From: Escherichia coli
Lineage (GTDB): Bacteria; Pseudomonadota; Gammaproteobacteria; Enterobacterales; Enterobacteriaceae
Assembly: GCF_048403405.1 (NCBI RefSeq)
Contig: NZ_CP183129.1
Length of the DNA: 64,000 nt
Direction: 5' to 3' (one strand)
Part shown: positions 3,798 through 57,214 of the stretch, piece after piece
Layout of the letters: the number at the start of each line of letters is the position of its first letter
How positions within the stretch are numbered: the first letter of the stretch is position 1
Program-made: the position numbers and the translations under genes
The notes under the pieces: model-generated
What the model was told of the DNA's origin: nothing
The model's database searches: none
Seen by the model: only the letters and a program-made list of their open reading frames with translations

Positions 3798-5207
3798 ATG
3801 CAACGAGGGATAGTCTGGGTAGTCGATGACGATAGTTCCATCCGTTGGGTGCTTGAACGTGCGCTCGCTGGAGCGGGTTTAACCTGTACAACATTTGAGA
3901 ACGGCGCGGAGGTACTGGAGGCGCTGGCGAGCAAAACGCCGGATGTGCTGCTTTCAGATATCCGTATGCCGGGAATGGACGGGCTGGCGCTGCTCAAGCA
4001 GATTAAACAGCGCCATCCGATGCTTCCGGTCATCATTATGACCGCACATTCCGATCTGGATGCTGCCGTCAGCGCCTATCAACAAGGGGCATTTGATTAT
4101 CTGCCCAAACCGTTTGATATCGACGAAGCCGTGGCGCTGGTTGAGCGCGCCATCAGTCATTACCAAGAACAGCAGCAGCCGCGTAATGTTCAGCTTAACG
4201 GCCCAACGACCGATATCATCGGCGAAGCGCCAGCCATGCAGGACGTGTTCCGTATTATCGGTCGGCTTTCGCGTTCTTCTATTAGCGTGCTGATTAACGG
4301 CGAATCCGGCACCGGTAAAGAGCTGGTCGCTCATGCCCTGCATCGCCACAGTCCGCGAGCCAAAGCGCCGTTTATCGCGCTGAATATGGCGGCTATCCCG
4401 AAGGATTTGATCGAATCAGAACTGTTTGGTCACGAGAAAGGCGCGTTTACTGGCGCGAACACCATTCGTCAGGGGCGTTTTGAACAGGCCGATGGCGGCA
4501 CGTTATTTCTCGACGAAATTGGTGATATGCCGCTGGATGTGCAGACGCGTTTGCTGCGCGTGCTGGCAGACGGTCAGTTTTATCGCGTTGGCGGCTATGC
4601 GCCGGTGAAAGTGGATGTGCGGATTATCGCTGCCACTCACCAGAATCTTGAACAGCGGGTGCAGGAAGGTAAGTTCCGTGAGGATCTGTTCCACCGCCTG
4701 AACGTCATCCGCGTTCATCTGCCACCACTGCGTGAGCGTCGGGAAGATATTCCCCGCCTGGCACGCCATTTTTTACAGGTTGCCGCGCGCGAACTGGGCG
4801 TAGAAGCGAAGTTACTGCATCCGGAAACCGAAGCCGCGCTGACGCGTCTGGCGTGGCCAGGCAACGTGCGCCAGCTGGAAAACACCTGCCGCTGGCTAAC
4901 GGTAATGGCTGCCGGACAGGAAGTGTTGATTCAGGATTTGCCTGGCGAACTGTTTGAATCAACGGTTGCGGAGAGTACTTCGCAAATGCAACCGGACAGT
5001 TGGGCGACGCTGTTAGCGCAGTGGGCAGACAGGGCGCTGCGTTCCGGTCATCAAAATCTGCTTTCCGAAGCGCAGCCTGAGCTGGAGCGGACGTTACTGA
5101 CCACCGCGCTGCGACATACGCAGGGGCATAAACAGGAAGCGGCGCGGCTACTCGGCTGGGGGCGTAACACTCTGACGCGGAAGTTAAAAGAGCTGGGGAT
5201 GGAGTGA
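3798..5207 (+). CDS. glnG: nitrogen regulation response regulator NtrC (NRI), sigma-54 activator
   Basis: Starts [23 protein letters not shown] at the ATG at 3798, 11 nt after the glnL stop; the ORF-track start at 3738 is an in-frame upstream extension overlapping glnL; AAA+ GESGTGKE and GAFTGA motifs; C-terminal HTH. Confidence 0.95.
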
Positions 5208-5318
5208 TTCACGGCTTGTGTGTAAAGATTGATTATTGAGCGCAAATTGCTGGTATTTTGCGCTTTACTGTTCCGATAAGTTCAGTATGATCTTGCCCGG
5301 AAAACGGGGAGAGTCATT

Positions 5319-5429
5319 ATGCTGGAATCAATAATTAATCTGGTATCGAGTGGCGCAGTTGACAGCCACACACCGCAAACTGCCGTTGCTGCCGTGCTGT
5401 GTGCCGCGATGATTGGGCTGTTTAGCTGA
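5319..5429 (+). CDS. yshB: small hydrophobic protein (36 aa) MLESIINLVSSGAVDSHTPQTAVAAVLCAAMIGLFS
   Basis: ATG with SD GGGGAGAG 6 nt upstream; in the glnG-hemN spacer where the small protein YshB is annotated in K-12 (recalled); below the ORF-track size cutoff. Confidence 0.45.
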   Translation: MLESIINLVSSGAVDSHTPQTAVAAVLCAAMIGLFS

Positions 5430-5463
5430 GTTTCAGATTGCTGATGAAGTGCTCTTTGTTCAT

Positions 5464-7690: not shown

Positions 7691-7759
7691 AATGGTTCGT
7701 CTTTTAGCCGTTTTATTCAGTATAGATTTGCGGCGGAATCTAACAGAAAGCAAGCAAAG

Positions 7760-8001
7760 AAAAAAGGCGACAGATTACTCTGTCGCCTTTTTTCCTGACT
7801 CATAACCCTTAACGGGTCTTACAATCCTTGCAGGCCGCCAACACACCCTGTTTTTCCATTAGCCGGAACAATCCGTGTTGATTCCATTTCCGTTTAATTA
7901 CGTCTCCGGACGTTTGTCTTCCTGACAATCCTCTGTCTTCGCCTCCTGGCGCTCCTGACCCTCATCCTGAGTCATTGTTCCTGTTAGCGTCCTCGCTCTA
8001 T
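7760..8001 (-). ncRNA. csrC: CsrC small RNA (CsrA-sequestering)
   Basis: Minus strand reads ATAGAGCGAGGACGCTAACAGGAACAATGACTCAGGATGAGGGTCAGGAGCG... with many GGA/AGGA motifs, ending in the terminator GGCGACAGAGTAATCTGTCGCC-TTTTTT; lies between engB and yihI as in E. coli. Confidence 0.72.
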
Positions 8002-12435: not shown

Positions 12436-13368
12436 ATGGCTAACTTTTTGAATAAATTCATTATGACGAGAATACTCGCTGCGATAACCCTTTTGCTGAG
12501 TATCGTATTGACCATTTTGGTCACTATTTTTTGCTCCGTCCCGATCATCATTGCCGGGATTGTAAAACTATTGCTTCCTGTGTCAGTCATTTGGCGAAAG
12601 GTTTCGCGTTTTTGTGATTTTATGATGTATTGCTGGTGTGAAGGTCTGGCGGTATTACTGCATTTGAACCCACACCTGCAATGGGAAGTTCACGGGCTGG
12701 AAGGGTTAAGTAAGAAAAACTGGTATCTGCTTATTTGTAACCACCGTAGTTGGGCAGATATTGTCGTACTGTGCGTGCTGTTTCGTAAGCACATTCCGAT
12801 GAATAAATATTTCCTCAAGCAGCAGCTGGCCTGGGTGCCTTTTCTTGGCCTGGCATGCTGGGCGCTGGATATGCCGTTTATGAAGCGTTATTCCCGCGCT
12901 TATTTATTACGTCATCCGGAGAGACGTGGTAAAGATGTTGAAACTACTCGGCGTTCTTGTGAAAAGTTTCGCCTGCATCCCACCACCATTGTTAATTTCG
13001 TTGAAGGCTCCCGTTTCACGCAAGAAAAACATCAGCAAACGCACTCCACTTTTCAAAACTTGTTGCCACCAAAGGCGGCAGGCATTGCGATGGCGCTAAA
13101 TGTACTGGGTAAACAATTCGATAAACTGCTTAATGTTACGCTGTGTTATCCGGACAATAACCGTCAGCCGTTCTTCGATATGTTAAGCGGTAAACTGACG
13201 CGAATTGTCGTACATGTGGATTTACAGCCTATTGCCGATGAGTTACATGGCGACTACATCAATGACAAAAGCTTTAAGCGCCATTTTCAGCAATGGCTGA
13301 ACTCACTGTGGCAGGAAAAAGACCGACTTCTGACGTCGTTGATGTCATCACAGCGTCAGAATAAGTAA
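12436..13368 (+). CDS. yihG: putative acyltransferase (PlsC-like, membrane)
   Basis: Starts [21 protein letters not shown]; HxxxxD-like acyltransferase motif (NHRSWAD); divergent from polA; the ORF-track start at 12412 is 8 codons upstream. Confidence 0.85.
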
Positions 13369-13408
13369 GTTTTACTCGCCTCTGAATGAGCAGAGGCGAG
13401 TGAGTATT

Positions 13409-14839
13409 TTAATGAACAAAACGTCCGGCACGAGACATAAATTCTTCTTCGCTCATTTCCTGTCCGTTAAAAACAACTTTACCCGGTGTATAACGCAGTT
13501 GCAGCGAGGCGGTATTGTTGTCAATCGTGATTAACTGAAACATCTGACCTAATGTCATCATCCCGCTGATTTGTTTATCAGCCCGCTTTTGCGCTTTTTC
13601 AGCATCCATTCCTTCAGATAAATTAAGCTGTTTTGCGGTTTCTGTGACGACATTAAGCGGTAACTTCACATCAAAATTGAGCGATTTAATATCTTTGTTT
13701 GTGGATGATGAGGATTTGGCTGGGTCGGCAATACTGATATCCAGATTGGCATTTAGTTCGCCGAGTGCATTCTTCCATCTTACCGGTTGTTTAATGGTCG
13801 GCTCACTTTTTTGTAATAACGGTAAATACTCTTTGAACAATGCAGCATTCACTTCTTGCAGAGCAACTTCATCGTTTGCTAACTCAGGGTGTGCAGCAAG
13901 CTGCTTCTGCATCGCAATGTTATACTGGATGACAAATTGGCGCACCGCTGAGGGATCAATAGATTCAGCAATCAATGACCACTCACCACTACCGAGTTGC
14001 TGATTCCTTTTTGTTAACTTATCAAGTTCGTAGGTCAGATTGACATTGATATAATCTTTGTCTTTAACGCGATCCAACCTGGTTTTTGCAACGAAAGCAT
14101 CGATTTGGGCAACGTCTTCCCCGTGATTGATAATGTTAATCTGATTAAATTTCGACTCGCTTTCACCAACCGGAAATTTCTTTTCTTCTAATCGCGCCAG
14201 AGAATCAATGGTAAAACTTTTCGCCGTTACTTTGTTCATCGGTGATAATTGCAGAACAATATCTTCGACTTTGCCTTCAATATCCAGGTTAGACAATGAA
14301 CTACCATCACCATTAAAAGTAAACTGGCCCTCACCAAAAGAAAACTTTCCATACTCTGCAGGGGCAACATCTAATGTCGTAGAGAATGAGCCACCAAACG
14401 CGAATCGCAATGTCGCTTCCACGGGCGATTTATTTTTCGCGGCGATAAATAGCGGTTGTGTCAGTTCATTATTCACTAAGTTCACTTTTGCCGCTGCCAG
14501 TGCTGGGATGACATTACCATGCATTAACATTGTGATGGGCAACGGACCGTGCTCAACATCCACATCAAATACAACTTTCTGGCCTGGCTTGATATTGAGA
14601 TCGGGTGCACCGTTATCGAATGTCATTTGCATTTGAAAACGGGAATTAAAAAAGCCTTTGTCAAAATTTTGATAACTTAACGTCATATCGTAGGCATGTT
14701 CACCTTTCTTTTTAGCATCGTTAAAATCTTTAATAAATTTTTCGACACCAGGCTGAATTTGCGTACCTGTGTACCATGTGCCACCACCCCAGATTACGGC
14801 TAACGCAACAATAACACCTGTAGCTGACTTACGTATCAT
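13409..14839 (-). CDS. yihF: DUF945-family protein YihF
   Basis: 476-aa product from MIRKSATGVIVALAVIWGGGTWYTG (N-terminal signal/TM); the ORF-track start at 14881 is upstream. Confidence 0.85.
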   Translation of the reverse strand: MIRKSATGVIVALAVIWGGGTWYTGTQIQPGVEKFIKDFNDAKKKGEHAYDMTLSYQNFDKGFFNSRFQMQMTFDNGAPDLNIKPGQKVVFDVDVEHGPLPITMLMHGNVIPALAAAKVNLVNNELTQPLFIAAKNKSPVEATLRFAFGGSFSTTLDVAPAEYGKFSFGEGQFTFNGDGSSLSNLDIEGKVEDIVLQLSPMNKVTAKSFTIDSLARLEEKKFPVGESESKFNQINIINHGEDVAQIDAFVAKTRLDRVKDKDYINVNLTYELDKLTKRNQQLGSGEWSLIAESIDPSAVRQFVIQYNIAMQKQLAAHPELANDEVALQEVNAALFKEYLPLLQKSEPTIKQPVRWKNALGELNANLDISIADPAKSSSSTNKDIKSLNFDVKLPLNVVTETAKQLNLSEGMDAEKAQKRADKQISGMMTLGQMFQLITIDNNTASLQLRYTPGKVVFNGQEMSEEEFMSRAGRFVH

Positions 14840-14950
14840 ATAAATATTCCCTGATAAAACAGCAAAACTTTGAATATCCACTTATGCTGAAATAATGTCC
14901 AGCGGCAGGACGCATTATCAGAATGTATTTATATTTATTAAATAATAAAA

Positions 14951-43318: not shown

Positions 43319-43574
43319 CGCCATAGTCGCTAAATCTGATGATTAAGCTCACACAATTTCAACGATTTTTTTAATCTCAAAACCATACAGCATCAAAAAA
43401 TTTGTTGCTGTATGCCACTCTTTGACTCCCTTCACATTCGTCATCACACCACCTGCTGAATGCAAAAATTTCGTTGCTGTGCGGCAAACTTTTTTCCTGT
43501 TTTGTGCCGCTTTTCTCCTGAATACTCGTTCTCAGAACAACTGGATCGTTTAAACATCAGACAGGAGATTTACC

Positions 43575-50865: not shown

Positions 50866-51771
50866 ATGTTCATCTCAGACGAAACGCTTCGTGTTATTCA
50901 TCTGGTCGCCAGACACCAGAGCATTACCATCGCAGCCGAGCAGTTAAATAAAGTCCCTTCCGCCATCAGTTACACCATCAAGAAAGCGGAAGAGAGCCTG
51001 GGCGTTGAACTGTTCATTCGTAAGGGACGCTATATTGAATTATCGCCAGCGGGAAGTTACTTCATCGAACATAGCAAAACTATTCTTGGCGACCTGGAAG
51101 CATTAAAGCGCAACACAGTGCTGATTCACGATGGTATTGAGCGTGAACTGACAATTGCGGTAAACAATATTATTCCTGGTAATTTGCTGGTGGCATTTAT
51201 TCGAGATTTTGAACGGCAATTCACATCAACAACACTGACGGTAGATCTTGAGGTATACAACGGCTGCTGGGATGCGCTGTACAGTAAGCGTGCTGATCTG
51301 GTCTACGGTGCTCCTCATGCAGTACCAAGTAGTGAAGGCATCATTAGCGAACCGGTCGGACAAATGGAATGGGATTTTGTCGTCAGCCCACTCCACCCAC
51401 TGGCAGCGAAGCGGCATCCATTAGAAAACAGTGAATTGCGTCATTATCCAGCGGTTTGTATCCGCGATACCTCCGTTAACTTCCCCCCGATGCAAGCCTG
51501 GTTGTTGGAAGGACAAAAACCCATTTTTGTTCCTGACTTCGCTACGGCAATCGCCTTAATAGAACAAAACGTCGGTATTGGTTATATTCCACATCATCTG
51601 GCATTGCCGTTATTGAACAGCGGTAAATTGCTTAAAAAGCCAATGCGCGAACATAAACACGCCACCAAGTTATTTCTTGCCGCTCGTTCCGATGGTATGG
51701 GCAAAGCCTGTCAGTGGTGCATAGAATATTTAAGAAACCCGCAATTAATGACACGATTTGTATTTAATTGA
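50866..51771 (+). CDS. LysR-family transcriptional regulator
   Basis: 301 aa; N-terminal wHTH (SITIAAEQLNKVPSAISYTIKKAEESLGVELFIRKGR) and LysR substrate-binding domain; SD GGGAG. Confidence 0.85.
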   Translation: MFISDETLRVIHLVARHQSITIAAEQLNKVPSAISYTIKKAEESLGVELFIRKGRYIELSPAGSYFIEHSKTILGDLEALKRNTVLIHDGIERELTIAVNNIIPGNLLVAFIRDFERQFTSTTLTVDLEVYNGCWDALYSKRADLVYGAPHAVPSSEGIISEPVGQMEWDFVVSPLHPLAAKRHPLENSELRHYPAVCIRDTSVNFPPMQAWLLEGQKPIFVPDFATAIALIEQNVGIGYIPHHLALPLLNSGKLLKKPMREHKHATKLFLAARSDGMGKACQWCIEYLRNPQLMTRFVFN

Positions 51772-51970
51772 CAATACAATGATAAAAATATAAGTCTTGC
51801 TTTAATTAGAGCGCCCGTTTAAATTATTTTTGTGCAGTTGACGTAACTCATGAAAATTAACCGGTCTGTTAATCATTACGTTCACTGCACACCTTCATTT
51901 TTTCACACCTATCCACGCCTGAAAACTATGTTATAATCAGCACTTTCTGTCAGAATGAAATTTACTAATT

Positions 51971-52816
51971 ATGAATAACATAACCGTAAAAAGTCTGATT
52001 CAAAGCAATTACCCTACACTGCATCAGGCGGAAAAAAAGGTCGCCGACTATATTCTTAGCCACGCACATGAAGTCGTGAACTATAGTGTCACTGAACTAT
52101 CAGAAAAAAGCCATGCCAGTGAAGCGACTATCGTGCGCACCTGTAAGAAATTAGGTTATCAGGGTTATTACCATTTAAAAATTGCATTAGCAAAAGAAGT
52201 CATTAATCCTGACAATAGCTATCCTGATAATACCGATTTTACCGATATAACGTCGCTGGCCACATTTTTATTAAAAAAACAGGCCGAAGATTTAATACAA
52301 TCAACGCAATTTTTTAATGCCGAAGTGCTTGAGTCCATTCTCAAACTACTTGCTAATTGCGATACTATTTTCTTTTTTGCTGCCGGAAATTCAAACCCTC
52401 TGGCCGTTTATGGTGCTTATAAATTCAGCCAACTCGGATTAAAAACCGTTGTTCACGTCAGCCCGGAAATGCAAATTAATGCGGCATATTCTATGGGGAA
52501 ACGCGACCTGGCGATTGGTATTTCTAACTCTGGCAGCACCAACTTAATGGTCGATATCTTTAAAGTGGTGAAAGAGCGCGGTGCCAAATCCGTTTGTATC
52601 ACTAACTATATTAAATCTCCGTTATCAAAACTCTCCACCCATCAACTCAATACCGCGGTCAGCGATAAAATCTTCTTTGAAGCCTTCGACTCCACTCGCG
52701 TTCCGGCAATGGGCGTTATTGATATGCTGGTGCTGTTGTTTATGTATAAAAACAAGGCGCATTACGAGAAATACCGCACCCGTGAAGAGTTTCTCGGCTC
52801 CCGTTTCAAGGGGTAA
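51971..52816 (+). CDS. RpiR/MurR-family transcriptional regulator (HTH plus SIS domain)
   Basis: 281 aa MNNITVKSLIQSNYPTLHQAEKKVADYILSH...; HTH_6 then SIS sugar-phosphate-binding domain. Confidence 0.85.
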   Translation: MNNITVKSLIQSNYPTLHQAEKKVADYILSHAHEVVNYSVTELSEKSHASEATIVRTCKKLGYQGYYHLKIALAKEVINPDNSYPDNTDFTDITSLATFLLKKQAEDLIQSTQFFNAEVLESILKLLANCDTIFFFAAGNSNPLAVYGAYKFSQLGLKTVVHVSPEMQINAAYSMGKRDLAIGISNSGSTNLMVDIFKVVKERGAKSVCITNYIKSPLSKLSTHQLNTAVSDKIFFEAFDSTRVPAMGVIDMLVLLFMYKNKAHYEKYRTREEFLGSRFKG

Positions 52817-52838
52817 AAGGTCATCCTTTCACCCCTTG
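52807..52838. terminator. bidirectional stem-loop between convergent rpiR-like and transketolase genes
   Basis: CAAGGGGTAAAAGG-tcat-CCTTTCACCCCTTG (14-bp stem, one mismatch); the left arm includes the rpiR stop codon. Confidence 0.55.
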
Positions 52839-52845
52839 TGCAGGT

Positions 52846-54843
52846 TTAGCTATTCAGTAGCTCACGCGCCTGCGCCAGGACATTTTCCGGCGTAAAACCA
52901 AAGTGTTTGAACAACACATTCGCCGGAGCAGACTCACCAAAGCTCGTCATCCCAATGACTTTACCATCCAGACCGACGTAGCGTTCCCAGAATCCGGCGA
53001 TGCTGGCTTCTACCGCCAGACGTTTGCGTACAGCTTTTGGCAATACCGATTCTTTGTACGCCGCATCCTGATTATCGAAACGCTCGGTACACGGCATGGA
53101 AACTACGCGAACTTTACGCCCTTCTTCCGTTAACGCTTTTGCGGCGCTGACCACTAACTCAATCTCTGAACCCGCAGAAATGAGGATCATCTCAGGCTGA
53201 CCGTCACAATCACTCAGTACATAACCACCACGCGCAATCTCTGCCAACTGTGCAGCGGTGCGCGGCTGTTGCGCCAGCGGTTGGCGCGTTAATACCAACG
53301 ACGTTGGGCCATCTTTGCGCTCAATCGCCTGTTGCCAGGCCACCGCCACTTCCACCTGATCGCAACCGCGCCAGGTTTCCATATTCGGCGTCAGACGCAG
53401 CGACGCCAGTTGCTCAACGGGCTGATGTGTCGGGCCGTCTTCGCCCAGGCCGATGGTATCGTGGGTATAAACAAACACCGAGCGGATCTTCATCAGCGCC
53501 GCCATGCGCAGTGCATTACGCGCATATTCCATAAACATCAGGAAAGTACCGCCGTAAGGGATAAACCCACCATGCAGCGCAAGACCGTTCATGATGGCCG
53601 ACATACCAAATTCACGCACGCCATAGGAGATGTAATTCCCCGCCGGATTTTCCCCGGTGAAATCAACCGATTTCTGATGGCGAGTCAGGTTAGAGGGCGA
53701 CAAGTCCGCCGAGCCGCCCATCAGTTCCGGCAGCATATCAGCGAAGTGATTGAGGCATTTCTGGCTGACCTGACGGGTTGCCAGCGCCGCCGGATGGGAT
53801 TGCAGATCGTGCACATATTTCTGCATATTCTCGGCCCAGCCAGCAGGCAAATCACCCTTCATGCGACGAGTAAACTCCGCCGCCAGTTCCGGCCACTGCT
53901 TCGCGTAGTCAGCAAACAGTGCATCCCATTCCTGTTGAACCTGCGCGCCTTTCTCGGTCGCATCCCATTCGGCATAAATTTCACCAGGAATTTCGAAAGG
54001 GGCATACGGCCATTGCAGACGTTCACGCACCAGCGCCACTTCATCTGCACCCAGCGCCGAGCCGTGGCAATCGTGGCTGTTGGCTTTATTTGGTGAACCA
54101 AAACCGATAATCGTTTTGCAGCACAGCAGACTGGGCTTATCCGTGACGCTTTTCGCTTCACGCACCGCAGCATCTACCGCTTCTGGATCGTGACCATCAA
54201 CGCCTTCAATGACATGCCAGCCGTAGGCACGAAAACGGGCAGCCGTATCTTCAGCGAACCAGCCTTCTACGTGACCATCGATCGAAATACCGTTATCGTC
54301 CCAGATAGCAATCAGATTGCCGAGCTTCAGCGTTCCTGCAAGACCACAGGCCTCGTGGGAGATCCCTTCCATCAGGCAGCCATCACCCAAAAATAGCCAT
54401 GTGTGATGATCAACAATATTAAAGCCCGGTTTGTTAAATTCTGCCGCCAGCGCCTTCTCCGCAATCGCCATCCCCACCGCATTAGCTACGCCCTGCCCCA
54501 ACGGGCCGGTGGTGGTTTCAACACCCGGCGTATAACCATATTCTGGATGACCCGGCGTGCGGGAGTGGAGCTGACGAAAGTCGCGAATATCATCCATCGA
54601 CAGGTCGTAGCCTGTAAGATGCAGCAAAGCGTAAATCAACATGGAGCCGTGACCGTTCGACTGAACATAGCGGTCGCGGTTAAACCACTGCGGATTTTTT
54701 GGGTTATGACGCAGGTGACGACGCCAGACCACTTCGGCAATATCCGCCATCCCCATCGGCGCGCCCGGATGACCGGAGTTCGCTTTCTGGATCGCATCAA
54801 CACTTAACATTCGGATGGCATTAGCCAGTAATTGTGAATTCAT
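52846..54843 (-). CDS. transketolase (third paralogue, distinct from TktA/TktB)
   Basis: 665 aa [44 protein letters not shown]...; TPP-binding [10 protein letters not shown]; diverged from recalled TktA/TktB (identity not computed). Confidence 0.93.
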
Positions 54844-54893
54844 ACTTCAGCTCTCTCTGTCTGGCGGGCTGAAACCAGCCCGCTAATCTCGAA

Positions 54894-56402
54894 TTAGTTA
54901 GCACAGGCCACTGTCATTTCTGTCGGGCGCGGTCTGCTCATTACGGTTTTAATTTCGTCGCGCAGGATTTGCGATTTGCCGCCAAATATCACCTGTACAC
55001 CGCCATCACCCAGTTTCACTAACCCCGCAGCCCCCAACTCCTTCAGCCGTTTTTCATTCACTTTCTTATCGTCTACCAGCGCCAGCCTCAGGCGTGTTGC
55101 GCAGGCATCCACATCTTCGATATTGTCGAAACCACCTACTGCTTCGATGATTTGGTATGGACGTTCTTCGCGCGTTAATGTGGTTGCAACGGCAATCTCT
55201 TCATCCTCACGTCCCGGTGTTTTCAGATTCAACTTGCGGATCAGTACCCGAAATACGGTGTAGTAAATCGCTGCATAGCCCGCGCCTGCCAGGAACACCA
55301 GATACCACGGCGTGCGGTTTGGCATAACGCCATTCAGTACGAAATCAATAAGACCGCCAGCAAAAGGATGACCAATGTGCACATTCAGGATGTTCATCAG
55401 CACAAATGAAGTGGCATATAAGAAGATGTGAATGATGTAGAGAACCGGAGCTGCAAACAAAAATGCATATTCCAGCGGCTCCGTAATCCCGGTAACAAAT
55501 GTGGTCAGCGCACCGGAGAGTAAAAGGCCTTTAATCAGCGCCTTACGTTCCGGTTTTGCTTCCTGATACATCGCCAACGCGGCGGCAGGTAACGCAAACA
55601 TCATGATCGGGAAACGACCTGTCATAAACAGCCCCGCCGTCAACGGAACACCGTCGCGCAATTGGGCAAAGAACACCGGAATATCGCCCGTCACCAGTTG
55701 CCCGGATTTGGTCATGTAGTCGCCAAAGTTGTAATAAAACGGCACGTTCCAGATATGATGCAGGCCAAAAGGAATCAGCGAACGTTCGCCAACGGCGTAA
55801 ATAAAGGCCGCGAAGTTCGCGTTATGCCCACTGGTCACCAGCGTTGAAAGCGACGCCAGACCTTTTTGTACCGGTATCCACAGCCACGGCAATAAATAGC
55901 CGACAATAATTGCCGCCACCGCCGTAATAATCGGTACAAAGCGTTTTCCACCGAAGAAACCAAGAAACTGAGGCAATTCAATATTGTGGAAGCGGGTATA
56001 GAGCAGATAAACAAAGATGGCGACAATCAAACCGCCAAACACTCCCGTTTGTAACGTCGGTACCCCGAGGATCATCGCATAGTCACCGTTACTGGCTGCA
56101 ACGGACTCCGCGGTAATGCCAAGTTGCGTTCCCATCGTGGCATTCATGATCATGTAACTGATAATCGCTGAAAGTGATGAAGAACCATCACCTGTCAGGC
56201 CAATCACAATACCGACACAAAACAGCAAAGGAAGGTTGGCGAAAATCAGGCCGCCGCAATTCGCCAGCAGCTCAATGTTAAATGAAATCCCGATGGCTAA
56301 AATCAAACCCGCCGCCGGAAGAATGGCGATTGGTAACATCAGAGCAGAAGAAAATTTCTGCAACTTCTTGAAGTTAAACAAGGATGTTATTTTTTTGCTC
56401 AT
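54894..56402 (-). CDS. PTS glucose-family EIICB component
   Basis: 502 aa; EIIC motif GITEPLEYAF; C-terminal EIIB phospho-cysteine motif DACATRLRLALVD; SD CAGGAGAA; no EIIA domain or gene nearby. Confidence 0.9.
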   Translation of the reverse strand: MSKKITSLFNFKKLQKFSSALMLPIAILPAAGLILAIGISFNIELLANCGGLIFANLPLLFCVGIVIGLTGDGSSSLSAIISYMIMNATMGTQLGITAESVAASNGDYAMILGVPTLQTGVFGGLIVAIFVYLLYTRFHNIELPQFLGFFGGKRFVPIITAVAAIIVGYLLPWLWIPVQKGLASLSTLVTSGHNANFAAFIYAVGERSLIPFGLHHIWNVPFYYNFGDYMTKSGQLVTGDIPVFFAQLRDGVPLTAGLFMTGRFPIMMFALPAAALAMYQEAKPERKALIKGLLLSGALTTFVTGITEPLEYAFLFAAPVLYIIHIFLYATSFVLMNILNVHIGHPFAGGLIDFVLNGVMPNRTPWYLVFLAGAGYAAIYYTVFRVLIRKLNLKTPGREDEEIAVATTLTREERPYQIIEAVGGFDNIEDVDACATRLRLALVDDKKVNEKRLKELGAAGLVKLGDGGVQVIFGGKSQILRDEIKTVMSRPRPTEMTVACAN

Positions 56403-56443
56403 TTTTATTCTCCTGTAGGGTATCGAGCAAATAACGGCGACGA

Positions 56444-57001
56444 CTATTCCAGATTGGCGTGGCGCTTAAACAGTTCACTTTCCGGCGCACCACTTTCAGC
56501 AGCCATCTTCATCACTAATGCATCGGCAATCACCAGCAAAGCTTGCTCATACAACGACGCCATCGGCTGTGCCGAGCGGAAAACAGAATCTTTTTGATTT
56601 TTGGAAGGGGCATTGATTTGCACGATGACGTCGACAAACTCGGTGATAGTGGCGTGTCGATTCGTGGTTAACACCGCCACAGCGCCGCCAAGCTGACGTG
56701 CTTTTTTCGCCAGTGCCACCAGTTGTGCTGTCTCACCGGAAGCGGAAGAAACGATAAACAGATCGCCAGGCCCAAAGTTCGGCGTAATGGTTTCCGTCAG
56801 AAAGTAAACCTCTTTTCCCATATGCATCAGGCGCATGGTGAAGGCTTTCATGGAAAAGCCGGCGCGTCCCAGGCCATAGCAGAAAACGCGCTGGCTTTGC
56901 TGAATAGCGTCGATCAATTTGGTGCAGTCATCCTCACGGATAGAGTCCTTAACGAAGGTTAATTCATTGATGATCTCAGTGATGTACAGCTTTGCGTCCA
57001 T
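56444..57001 (-). CDS. SIS-domain sugar-phosphate isomerase (6-phospho-3-hexuloisomerase-like)
   Basis: 185 aa from MDAKLYITEIINELTFVKD (SD AGGTG upstream; the alternative start at 57013 adds 4 aa); single SIS domain with GLGRAG and SSASGET motifs. Confidence 0.72.
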   Translation of the reverse strand: MDAKLYITEIINELTFVKDSIREDDCTKLIDAIQQSQRVFCYGLGRAGFSMKAFTMRLMHMGKEVYFLTETITPNFGPGDLFIVSSASGETAQLVALAKKARQLGGAVAVLTTNRHATITEFVDVIVQINAPSKNQKDSVFRSAQPMASLYEQALLVIADALVMKMAAESGAPESELFKRHANLE

Positions 57002-57008
57002 TTCACAC

Positions 57009-57214
57009 CTCATGAAATAATTTTCTCAAACACAAAATCTCATGAAATTTTATTTCATTCCAATGCATCAGTATGAAATGTGAAGCTAGTCACAAGAAAG
57101 ATCATAGGTTGATATGTTTTTCATTAAAAAACATATAGATATCAAGTAATTTTTAATATGTGATGGAGAGGCAGATAGAAAAAATGGCGGAAATGACGAA
57201 ATTTATTTCATGAG
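57009..57214 (-). promoter_or_regulatory. control region of the SIS-PTS-transketolase operon: consensus CRP site (TGTGAAGCTAGTCACA, 57078-57093) and repeated CTCATGAAAT motifs (57009-57018, 57039-57048; inverted copy 57205-57214)
   Basis: Motifs read directly in a ~290-bp AT-rich spacer upstream of the first operon gene; a possible -10 TAAAAT on the minus strand at 57052-57047. Confidence 0.55.

What the first reader, a model, noticed from the sequence alone, without database searches (positions are those of the whole stretch)
52807..52838. Strong bidirectional hairpin overlapping the rpiR-like stop codon
A 14-bp imperfect inverted repeat (CAAGGGGTAAAAGG / CCTTTCACCCCTTG) separates the convergent regulator and transketolase genes within a 29-bp gap, and its left arm contains the regulator stop codon. 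It likely insulates the two transcription units and could affect the regulator mRNA 3' end.
Basis: seen in the sequence. Interest (0 to 1): 0.3.

Follow-up and report, generated by a model that had tools for sequence, protein, structure and literature searches.

The report
Tail-less shared hairpin between convergent genes
A real, stable RNA hairpin sits between a sugar-regulator gene and a transketolase operon that face each other in a pathogenic-E. coli genomic island; it is the local, U-tract-less version of an ordinary two-way transcription terminator, so it is genuine but not surprising.

Summary
A 14-bp inverted repeat with one mismatch and a 4-nt loop lies at 52807-52838. The RpiR-like regulator's TAA stop codon is inside its left arm, and the gap to the convergent transketolase gene is 29 bp. 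The hairpin folds at -18.5 kcal/mol on the + RNA and -22.2 on the - RNA (z about -6). Repeats of this quality are about 30 times rarer in shuffled sequence.

The window is the E. coli B2/ExPEC tkt1 genomic island. The hairpin is single-copy in 1134 of 5426 complete E. coli genomes and nearly invariant; the only common variant is a loop SNP.

Five orthologous rpiR-tkt junctions from other bacteria all carry a hairpin at the same place. Four are textbook A-tract/GC-stem/T-tract bidirectional intrinsic terminators.

The E. coli version keeps the stability but has a GC core of only GG/CC and no T-tract on either side. The stem is instead built from the former A and T tracts and the last codons. 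It therefore fails the canonical intrinsic-terminator test.

Most likely it is a shared marker and protector of both mRNA 3' ends, with polymerase release helped by Rho and/or head-on polymerase collisions. This is a new member of a known kind, of low interest.

The parts
52807..52820 (.). Left arm of the inverted repeat (CAAGGGGTAAAAGG). It overlaps the last codons (TTC AAG GGG) and the stop codon of the regulator.
52821..52824 (.). Loop, TCAT. It carries the only common E. coli polymorphism (A52823G, in 29 of 1134 genomes).
52825..52838 (.). Right arm (CCTTTCACCCCTTG), intergenic. It contains what is left of the former T-tract (CCTTTCA).
52814..52816 (+). TAA stop codon of the RpiR-like regulator, at positions 8-10 of the left arm. 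Stop1 (U-A) and stop3 (A-U) are paired; stop2 forms the A.C mismatch.
51971..52816 (+). MurR/RpiR-family regulator (HTH_6 + SIS domains), the transcription unit that ends at the hairpin on the + strand.
52846..54843 (-). tkt1 transketolase, last gene of the hxlB-ptsG-tkt unit. Its stop codon is 7 nt before the hairpin on the - strand.
54894..57013 (-). Upstream genes of the presumed operon: PTS EIIBC (54894-56402) and 6-phospho-3-hexuloisomerase-like SIS protein (56444-57013). Gaps of 50 and 41 nt. That they form one operon is inferred from spacing.
52800..52844 (.). Weak outer extension of the stem (CC.GG / CC.GG pairs), which adds about 3-4 kcal/mol.

Best explanation
The hairpin is the shared 3'-end element of two convergent transcription units in the E. 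coli B2 tkt1 island: the rpiR-like regulator on the + strand and hxlB-ptsG-tkt1 on the - strand.

It is the positional homologue of a canonical bidirectional intrinsic terminator that related loci carry at the same junction. In E. coli the GC-rich core has shrunk to GG/CC and both U-tracts are gone. The stem is now made of the former A-tract and T-tract plus the regulator's last codons (AAGGGG) and their intergenic complement (CCCCTT). Overall stability is kept.

Both RNAs can fold it (shown). From that I infer three things:
(i) it pauses polymerase and fixes and protects the 3' ends of both mRNAs against 3'-5' exonucleases;
(ii) polymerase release is largely not classical intrinsic termination, but depends on Rho acting on the untranslated antisense RNA downstream and/or on head-on polymerase collisions at the hairpin;
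(iii) on the + strand a ribosome at the stop codon keeps the hairpin open, so it acts only after ribosome release.
For: - The hairpin is real, stable and non-random.
- It is single-copy in each of 1134 E. coli genomes. The 40-mer is identical in 1101 of them, and 29 of the 33 variants carry one loop SNP.
- Five orthologous junctions (regulator 68-79% identical, Tkt 77-87% identical) and three more regulator orthologues all have a hairpin directly after the stop codon. The stem sequences differ: GGAGC, GGGGC, GGGGAG, GCGGC.
- L007, L087, L088 and L089 pass an A-tract/GC-stem/T-tract test on both strands. The window passes on neither.
- Hairpin energy is -19.2 kcal/mol in E. coli against -17.0 to -23.0 in the orthologues. 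The wobble base of the last codon is paired in 6 of 6 loci, with four pair types (G-C, A-U, U-A, C-G).
- All five convergent junctions in this window carry a hairpin of -18 to -22 kcal/mol, and several lack T-tracts.
- The C/G ratio is 1.2-2.0 for 400 nt downstream on the + strand, which is rut-like.
- Published work shows that E. coli Rho-dependent 3' ends sit at stable hairpins without U-tails, and that terminators may switch type by changing uridine content (PMC6061677). It also describes hairpin-encoding bidirectional terminators between convergent genes that do not resemble intrinsic terminators and work through polymerase collisions (bioRxiv 10.1101/2022.10.23.513370).
Against: - I found no transcript 3'-end data for this locus; a literature search returned nothing.
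- Conservation within E. coli is shallow (98-100% identity in the flanks), so it proves little.
- Downstream of the hairpin on the - strand, C/G is about 1 and then 0.35-0.55, which is poor for Rho loading.
- The pair covariation comes from per-sequence minimum-energy folds of only six loci. In the orthologues, pairing of the stop codon is partly a by-product of A-tract/T-tract symmetry.
- The collision model needs both units to be transcribed at the same time, which is unknown here.
Confidence: 0.6

Rival explanations
1. It is a fully competent classical (Rho-independent) bidirectional intrinsic terminator that releases polymerase by itself in both directions.
For: It has a stable 14-bp stem on both strands. 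It lies between convergent genes. Its orthologues at the same junction are canonical intrinsic terminators.
Against: There is no U-tract on either strand: the 8 bases after the full stem hold 2 T on the + strand and 0 on the - strand, and the best value with any stem boundary is 2-4. The consensus scan does not call it. The stop codon lies inside the 5' arm, and terminators a few bp after a gene are almost fully repressed by the ribosome (PMC4824070).
Confidence: 0.15
2. It is a decayed relic: the leftover of an ancestral terminator after a small deletion in its core, now without function and kept only because the island is young.
For: E. coli has the shortest gap (29 bp against 34-47) and has lost the GC core and the T-tracts. 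E. coli diversity is too shallow to demonstrate selection.
Against: Stability is retained at the family level, apparently through G-C enrichment of the outer stem. That enrichment includes synonymous A-to-G changes in the Lys and Gly codons, matched by T-to-C changes opposite. The only frequent polymorphism in 1134 genomes is in the loop. Every other convergent junction in the window also keeps a comparable hairpin.
Confidence: 0.12
3. It is a regulatory device. A deliberately leaky hairpin would let induced hxlB-ptsG-tkt transcription run antisense through the regulator gene, or would use stop-codon sequestration to tune regulator translation, coupling operon activity to regulator level.
For: The - strand hairpin has no U-tail, and the RNA downstream of it is G-rich, so it is a poor Rho substrate. 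The stop codon is inside the stem. The regulator and the operon it presumably controls are convergent.
Against: There is no direct evidence. The same stop-in-stem layout is found in orthologues that have strong canonical terminators, so it does not require a special regulatory reading.
Confidence: 0.08
4. It is a DNA-level element: a palindromic protein-binding site (for example an operator for the RpiR-like regulator), or a repeated or mobile element such as a REP.
For: It is a palindrome, and it contains TGAAA/TTTCA, which is reminiscent of the TCATGAAAT motifs clustered in the hxlB promoter.
Against: It is single-copy in every genome, so it is not a REP. No second copy of the core palindrome exists in the window, even allowing 3 mismatches. 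The promoter motif (ATGAAAT-N3-ATTTCAT) differs from it. Orthologues conserve the structure, not the sequence. Rfam gives no match.
Confidence: 0.03

Closest known systems
Bidirectional intrinsic (Rho-independent) terminators between convergent genes (A-tract, GC stem-loop, T-tract)
   Same: It has the same position and is a stable hairpin that both strands can fold. It is the positional homologue of textbook examples in loci L007, L087, L088 and L089, and there is a textbook example in this same window at 7759-7794.
   Different: The flanking A-tract and T-tract are missing. The former tracts are now inside the stem, and the GC core is only 2 bp.
Overlapping bidirectional terminators found by SEnd-seq and their collision-driven termination (Ju et al. 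2019, cited from the next paper; Wang et al., bioRxiv 10.1101/2022.10.23.513370)
   Same: It encodes a hairpin between convergent genes and does not look like an intrinsic terminator. The proposed role is to pause polymerase and set precise, overlapping 3' ends.
   Different: That class was defined by transcript mapping in K-12. No mapping exists for this island, and whether the two units are expressed together is unknown.
[quoted passage not shown]
   Same: It is a stable stem-loop with no uridine tail and no upstream A-tract, and C exceeds G downstream on the + strand. The paper itself predicts evolutionary switching between terminator types through loss of uridines, which is what the orthologue comparison suggests here.
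   Different: Downstream of the - strand hairpin the sequence is not C-rich. Dependence on Rho and trimming by exonucleases are untested.
REP elements acting as dual 3'UTR terminator/stabilisers (bioRxiv 10.64898/2026.03.23.713779)
   Same: It is a palindromic hairpin between convergent genes that could serve both mRNAs.
   Different: It is not a REP: it is single-copy, its sequence is unrelated, and it overlaps a coding sequence.

Membership tests
Canonical intrinsic terminator | Stable GC-rich stem-loop in the nascent RNA | tested here: met
   14 bp with a 4-nt loop; 7 G-C pairs; -18.5 and -22.2 kcal/mol.
Canonical intrinsic terminator | U-rich tract of 7-9 nt immediately 3' of the stem | tested here: not met
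   The + tail is TGTGCAGG (2 T) and the - tail is AAACGGGA (0 T). It is not listed by the consensus scan.
Canonical intrinsic terminator | Factor-independent release of polymerase in vitro | not testable with these tools
   Needs in vitro transcription.
Bidirectional intrinsic terminator | A-tract 5' and T-tract 3' of one symmetric hairpin, so that both strands read stem plus U-tail | tested here: not met
   The window fails on both strands. Orthologues L007, L087, L088 and L089 pass on both strands.
Overlapping / collision-type bidirectional terminator | Hairpin-encoding element in the gap of a convergent gene pair | tested here: met
Overlapping / collision-type bidirectional terminator | Overlapping, precise 3' ends of both transcripts; independence from Rho; dependence on convergent transcription | not testable with these tools
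   Needs SEnd-seq or Term-seq with and without bicyclomycin, and promoter deletions.
Protective stem-loop at a Rho-dependent 3' end | Stable stem-loop without a U-tail or an A-tract | tested here: met
Protective stem-loop at a Rho-dependent 3' end | C-over-G bias (rut-like) immediately downstream | tested here: inconclusive
   On the + strand C/G is 1.2-2.0 over 400 nt. On the - strand it is 0.35-1.2.
REP element | Multicopy extragenic palindrome with the REP consensus | tested here: not met
   One place per genome in 1134 genomes. It overlaps coding sequence.
Any Rfam family | Covariance-model match | tested here: not met
   Nothing at the hairpin, even at E-value up to 10.

The most novel reading that the evidence does not exclude
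The E. coli B2 lineage converted an ancestral strong bidirectional intrinsic terminator into a tail-less hairpin by deleting the core and strengthening the outer stem. This produced a conditionally leaky boundary. When the hxlB-ptsG-tkt1 operon is induced, transcription would run antisense into its own convergent regulator, or collide with polymerases transcribing it. That would wire operon activity to regulator level. It would also be a natural, datable example of a terminator switching mechanism.
Probability: 0.1. Interest if true: 0.45.

Novelty: new member of a known kind. Interest (0 to 1): 0.2.

Why it matters
The practical value is in annotation. Terminator predictors that require a U-tract miss this 3' boundary of the tkt1 operon, which lies in an ExPEC fitness island. 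Anyone engineering or deleting tkt1 or the regulator should know that the two genes share 32 bp of structured 3' sequence, 10 bp of it coding.

The conceptual value is modest. The locus offers a clean orthologue series, from canonical terminator to tail-less hairpin, for testing the published idea that terminators change mechanism by losing uridines.

Tried and rejected
- **Rfam:** a permissive E-value search over 51000-55000 found nothing at the hairpin.
- **Repeated element or REP:** rejected, because the element is single-copy per genome.
- **Operator hypothesis:** the promoter regions carry a different motif (TCATGAAAT), and the hairpin palindrome has no second copy.
- **Comparison within E. 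coli:** the hairpin is invariant in five sampled strains, which is uninformative.
- **MAFFT/RNAalifold on the six junctions:** the stems were misaligned because of indels, giving a meaningless consensus energy of -2.45 kcal/mol. I replaced this with per-locus folds anchored on the stop codon.
- **Genome-wide scan for the regulator:** only one non-E. coli species representative was above 41% identity (L007). The other orthologues came from the protein search and contig look-ups.
- **Ju et al. 2019:** the paper could not be retrieved, so it is cited only through the later preprint.
- **3'-end mapping in uropathogenic strains:** the literature search returned nothing usable.

Full report
**Observation**

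The window reads CAAGGGGTAAAAGG TCAT CCTTTCACCCCTTG at 52807-52838. The repeat finder reports two 14-nt arms, 93% complementary, separated by 4 nt. The one mismatch is A.C on the + RNA and a G.U wobble on the - RNA.

ORF listing gives a 281-aa regulator at 51971-52816 (+). Its TAA (52814-52816) is inside the left arm. A 665-aa transketolase lies at 52846-54843 (-), leaving a 29-bp gap.

The hairpin folds at -18.5 kcal/mol (+) and -22.2 kcal/mol (-), with z-scores of -6.05 and -6.74. No shuffle of 200 folds as well. It remains the dominant structure in longer contexts.

A whole-window scan finds only three loci with a 14-bp inverted repeat of at most 1 mismatch and a 3-8 nt loop. Thirty dinucleotide-preserving shuffles average 0.1. 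The one correction is that 10 of the 32 bases are coding.

**Where it is**

The region is 100% identical to E. coli chromosomes and is present in 1134 of 5426 complete genomes. RefSeq annotation shows the order ysgA ... LysR-type regulator, MurR/RpiR regulator, then convergent tkt, ptsG-like EIIBC and hxlB, then metE. This is the 16-kb tkt1 genomic island of B2/ExPEC strains described by Li et al. 2012 (PMC3349570). That paper does not mention terminators or operon structure.

The gaps hxlB-ptsG (41 nt) and ptsG-tkt (50 nt) suggest one operon ending at the hairpin. This is an inference.

**What it is not**

- Rfam has no match at the hairpin, even at E-value up to 10.
- It is not a REP or other repeat. 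The 40-mer occurs exactly once in each of the 1134 genomes and nowhere in the other genomes. The core palindrome has no second copy in the window with up to 3 mismatches.
- It is not the likely operator of the regulator. The three exact TCATGAAAT copies in the window all lie upstream of hxlB (57010-57213), including an ATGAAAT-N3-ATTTCAT palindrome. The hairpin does not match that motif.

**Variation within E. coli**

Five sampled strains are identical across the hairpin, and their SNPs are in flanking codons. Across all 1134 genomes, 1101 carry the identical 40-mer. Of the 33 variants, 29 carry the same SNP, A52823G, which lies in the loop. This fits constraint on the stem, but the population is too shallow to prove it.

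**Comparison with orthologues**

This is the informative evidence. A genome-collection scan and a protein search found regulator orthologues at 67-79% identity, and their contigs were fetched.

Five of them (L007, L087, L088, L089, L090) have a convergent Tkt1 orthologue at 77-87% identity. Three (L086, L091, L092) have other downstream genes. All eight have a stable hairpin directly after the regulator's stop codon, with unrelated stem sequences: GGAGC, GGGGC, GGGGAG, GCGGC, GGCCCCCACA and GGCTGTGCT.

I applied the same rule as the consensus scan: at least 5 pairs, at least 3 of them G-C, a loop of 3-8 nt, and at least 5 T in 8 bases after the stem.
- L007, L087, L088 and L089 pass on both strands. 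They are textbook bidirectional intrinsic terminators.
- L086 also passes on both strands.
- L090 is borderline, with 4 T.
- The E. coli window passes on neither strand, with at most 2 T. The tool's own scan does not list it either.

Reading the sequences side by side, E. coli TAAAAGG-TCAT-CCTTTCACCCCTTG corresponds to L088 TAAAAAGGAGC-TAT-GCTCCTTTTTATC and L087 TAAAAGGGGC-ACA-GCCCCTTTTTTACCTTT. Four differences stand out:
- The E. coli GC core is reduced to GG/CC.
- Its T-tract is shortened and interrupted (TTTCA).
- Its gap is the shortest (29 bp against 34-47).
- Its outer stem is richer in G-C (AAG GGG / CCCCTT against AAA GGA / TCC..TTT).

Hairpin energy is nevertheless within the family range: -19.2 against -17.0 to -23.0 kcal/mol.

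In all six junctions the third base of the last codon and the third base of the stop codon are paired. The last-codon wobble position shows four pair types: G-C, A-U, U-A and C-G. There are two caveats. These pairs come from per-sequence minimum-energy folds of only six loci. In the canonical orthologues, pairing of UAA-AAAA with the T-tract is an automatic consequence of bidirectional-terminator symmetry, because the regulator's stop codon lies in the complement of the tkt-direction U-tract.

By parsimony (8 relatives against 1), the E. coli form is derived. That it arose by a small core deletion plus compensatory strengthening is my inference.

**Baseline in the same window**

All five convergent junctions that I could map carry a hairpin of -18 to -22 kcal/mol. 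Several lack a T-tract on one or both sides, and the fadA/fre hairpin is a REP. A tail-less hairpin of this strength between convergent genes is therefore normal for this genome.

**Mechanism**

Shown:
- Both RNAs can form the stem.
- Neither RNA has a U-tail.
- The + strand stop codon is inside the 5' arm.

From the literature:
- E. coli Rho-dependent transcripts end precisely at stable stem-loops without uridine tails. These stem-loops block PNPase and RNase II, rut sites lie just downstream, and terminators may switch type simply by changing uridine content (PMC6061677).
- Hundreds of convergent E. coli gene pairs have hairpin-encoding bidirectional terminators that do not resemble intrinsic terminators. 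They act by pausing polymerase so that head-on and trailing collisions release it (bioRxiv 10.1101/2022.10.23.513370).
- A terminator placed a few base pairs after a gene is almost fully repressed by the ribosome (PMC4824070).

Inferred: the hairpin defines and protects both 3' ends, while release depends on Rho and/or collisions. The C/G ratio downstream is 1.2-2.0 on the + strand, which is compatible with Rho. On the - strand it is about 1, falling to 0.35-0.55, which is less so. The tkt-direction transcript may therefore be the leakier one.

**Verdict**

The feature is real and almost certainly functional at the level of transcript 3' ends. It belongs to well-known kinds of element. Its word 'strong' applies to the fold, not to demonstrated termination.

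The only mildly interesting point is the orthologue series suggesting a switch from a canonical terminator to a tail-less hairpin. Interest is 0.2, and the novelty class is new member of a known kind.

Noticed in passing
window 57010-57213 (also 51848-51856): The only three exact copies of TCATGAAAT in the 64-kb window cluster upstream of the hxlB-like gene. They include an ATGAAAT-N3-ATTTCAT palindrome at 57042-57058, and a one-mismatch copy lies in the regulator's own promoter region. This is a candidate operator for the RpiR-like regulator.
   Followed up: partly
protein P0030 (metagenome/Logan contigs); corresponds to window ~52514-52816 and ~54286-54843: A 283-aa predicted protein joins Tkt1 residues 1-186 to the last ~97 residues of the RpiR-like regulator at a shared 'GIS' tripeptide. 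The two genes are convergent, so this requires either an inversion between short inverted homologies or an assembly chimera.
   Followed up: no
window 7759-7794: A perfect canonical bidirectional terminator, GAAAAAAGGCGACAG-attactc-CTGTCGCCTTTTTTC. It is a useful internal contrast to the tail-less hairpin.
   Followed up: no
window 43384-43414: An imperfect 14-bp inverted repeat, CATACAGCATCAAA/TTTGTTGCTGTATG, just downstream of ysgA at the left edge of the tkt1 island.
   Followed up: no
window 52840-52873: A second small stem (GCAGG...AGCTA-ttcag-TAGCT...CCTGC) lies inside the last codons of tkt, directly beside the main hairpin. The common SNP A52852G falls within it.
   Followed up: no
L007 (CACSKA010000003.1): The closest non-E. 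coli locus (regulator 79% identical, Tkt 87%) is in an assembly labelled Chryseobacterium sp. 18061. The same protein cluster is labelled Klebsiella pneumoniae by NCBI, so the taxon label looks doubtful.
   Followed up: no
window ~4650-5430 and ~12600-14840 relative to NZ_CP146675.1: The window is not fully collinear with strain MS 69-1. There is an offset of about 776 bp between yshB and polA, and the IS1 insertion in the DUF945 gene of MS 69-1 could not be mapped to the window.
   Followed up: no
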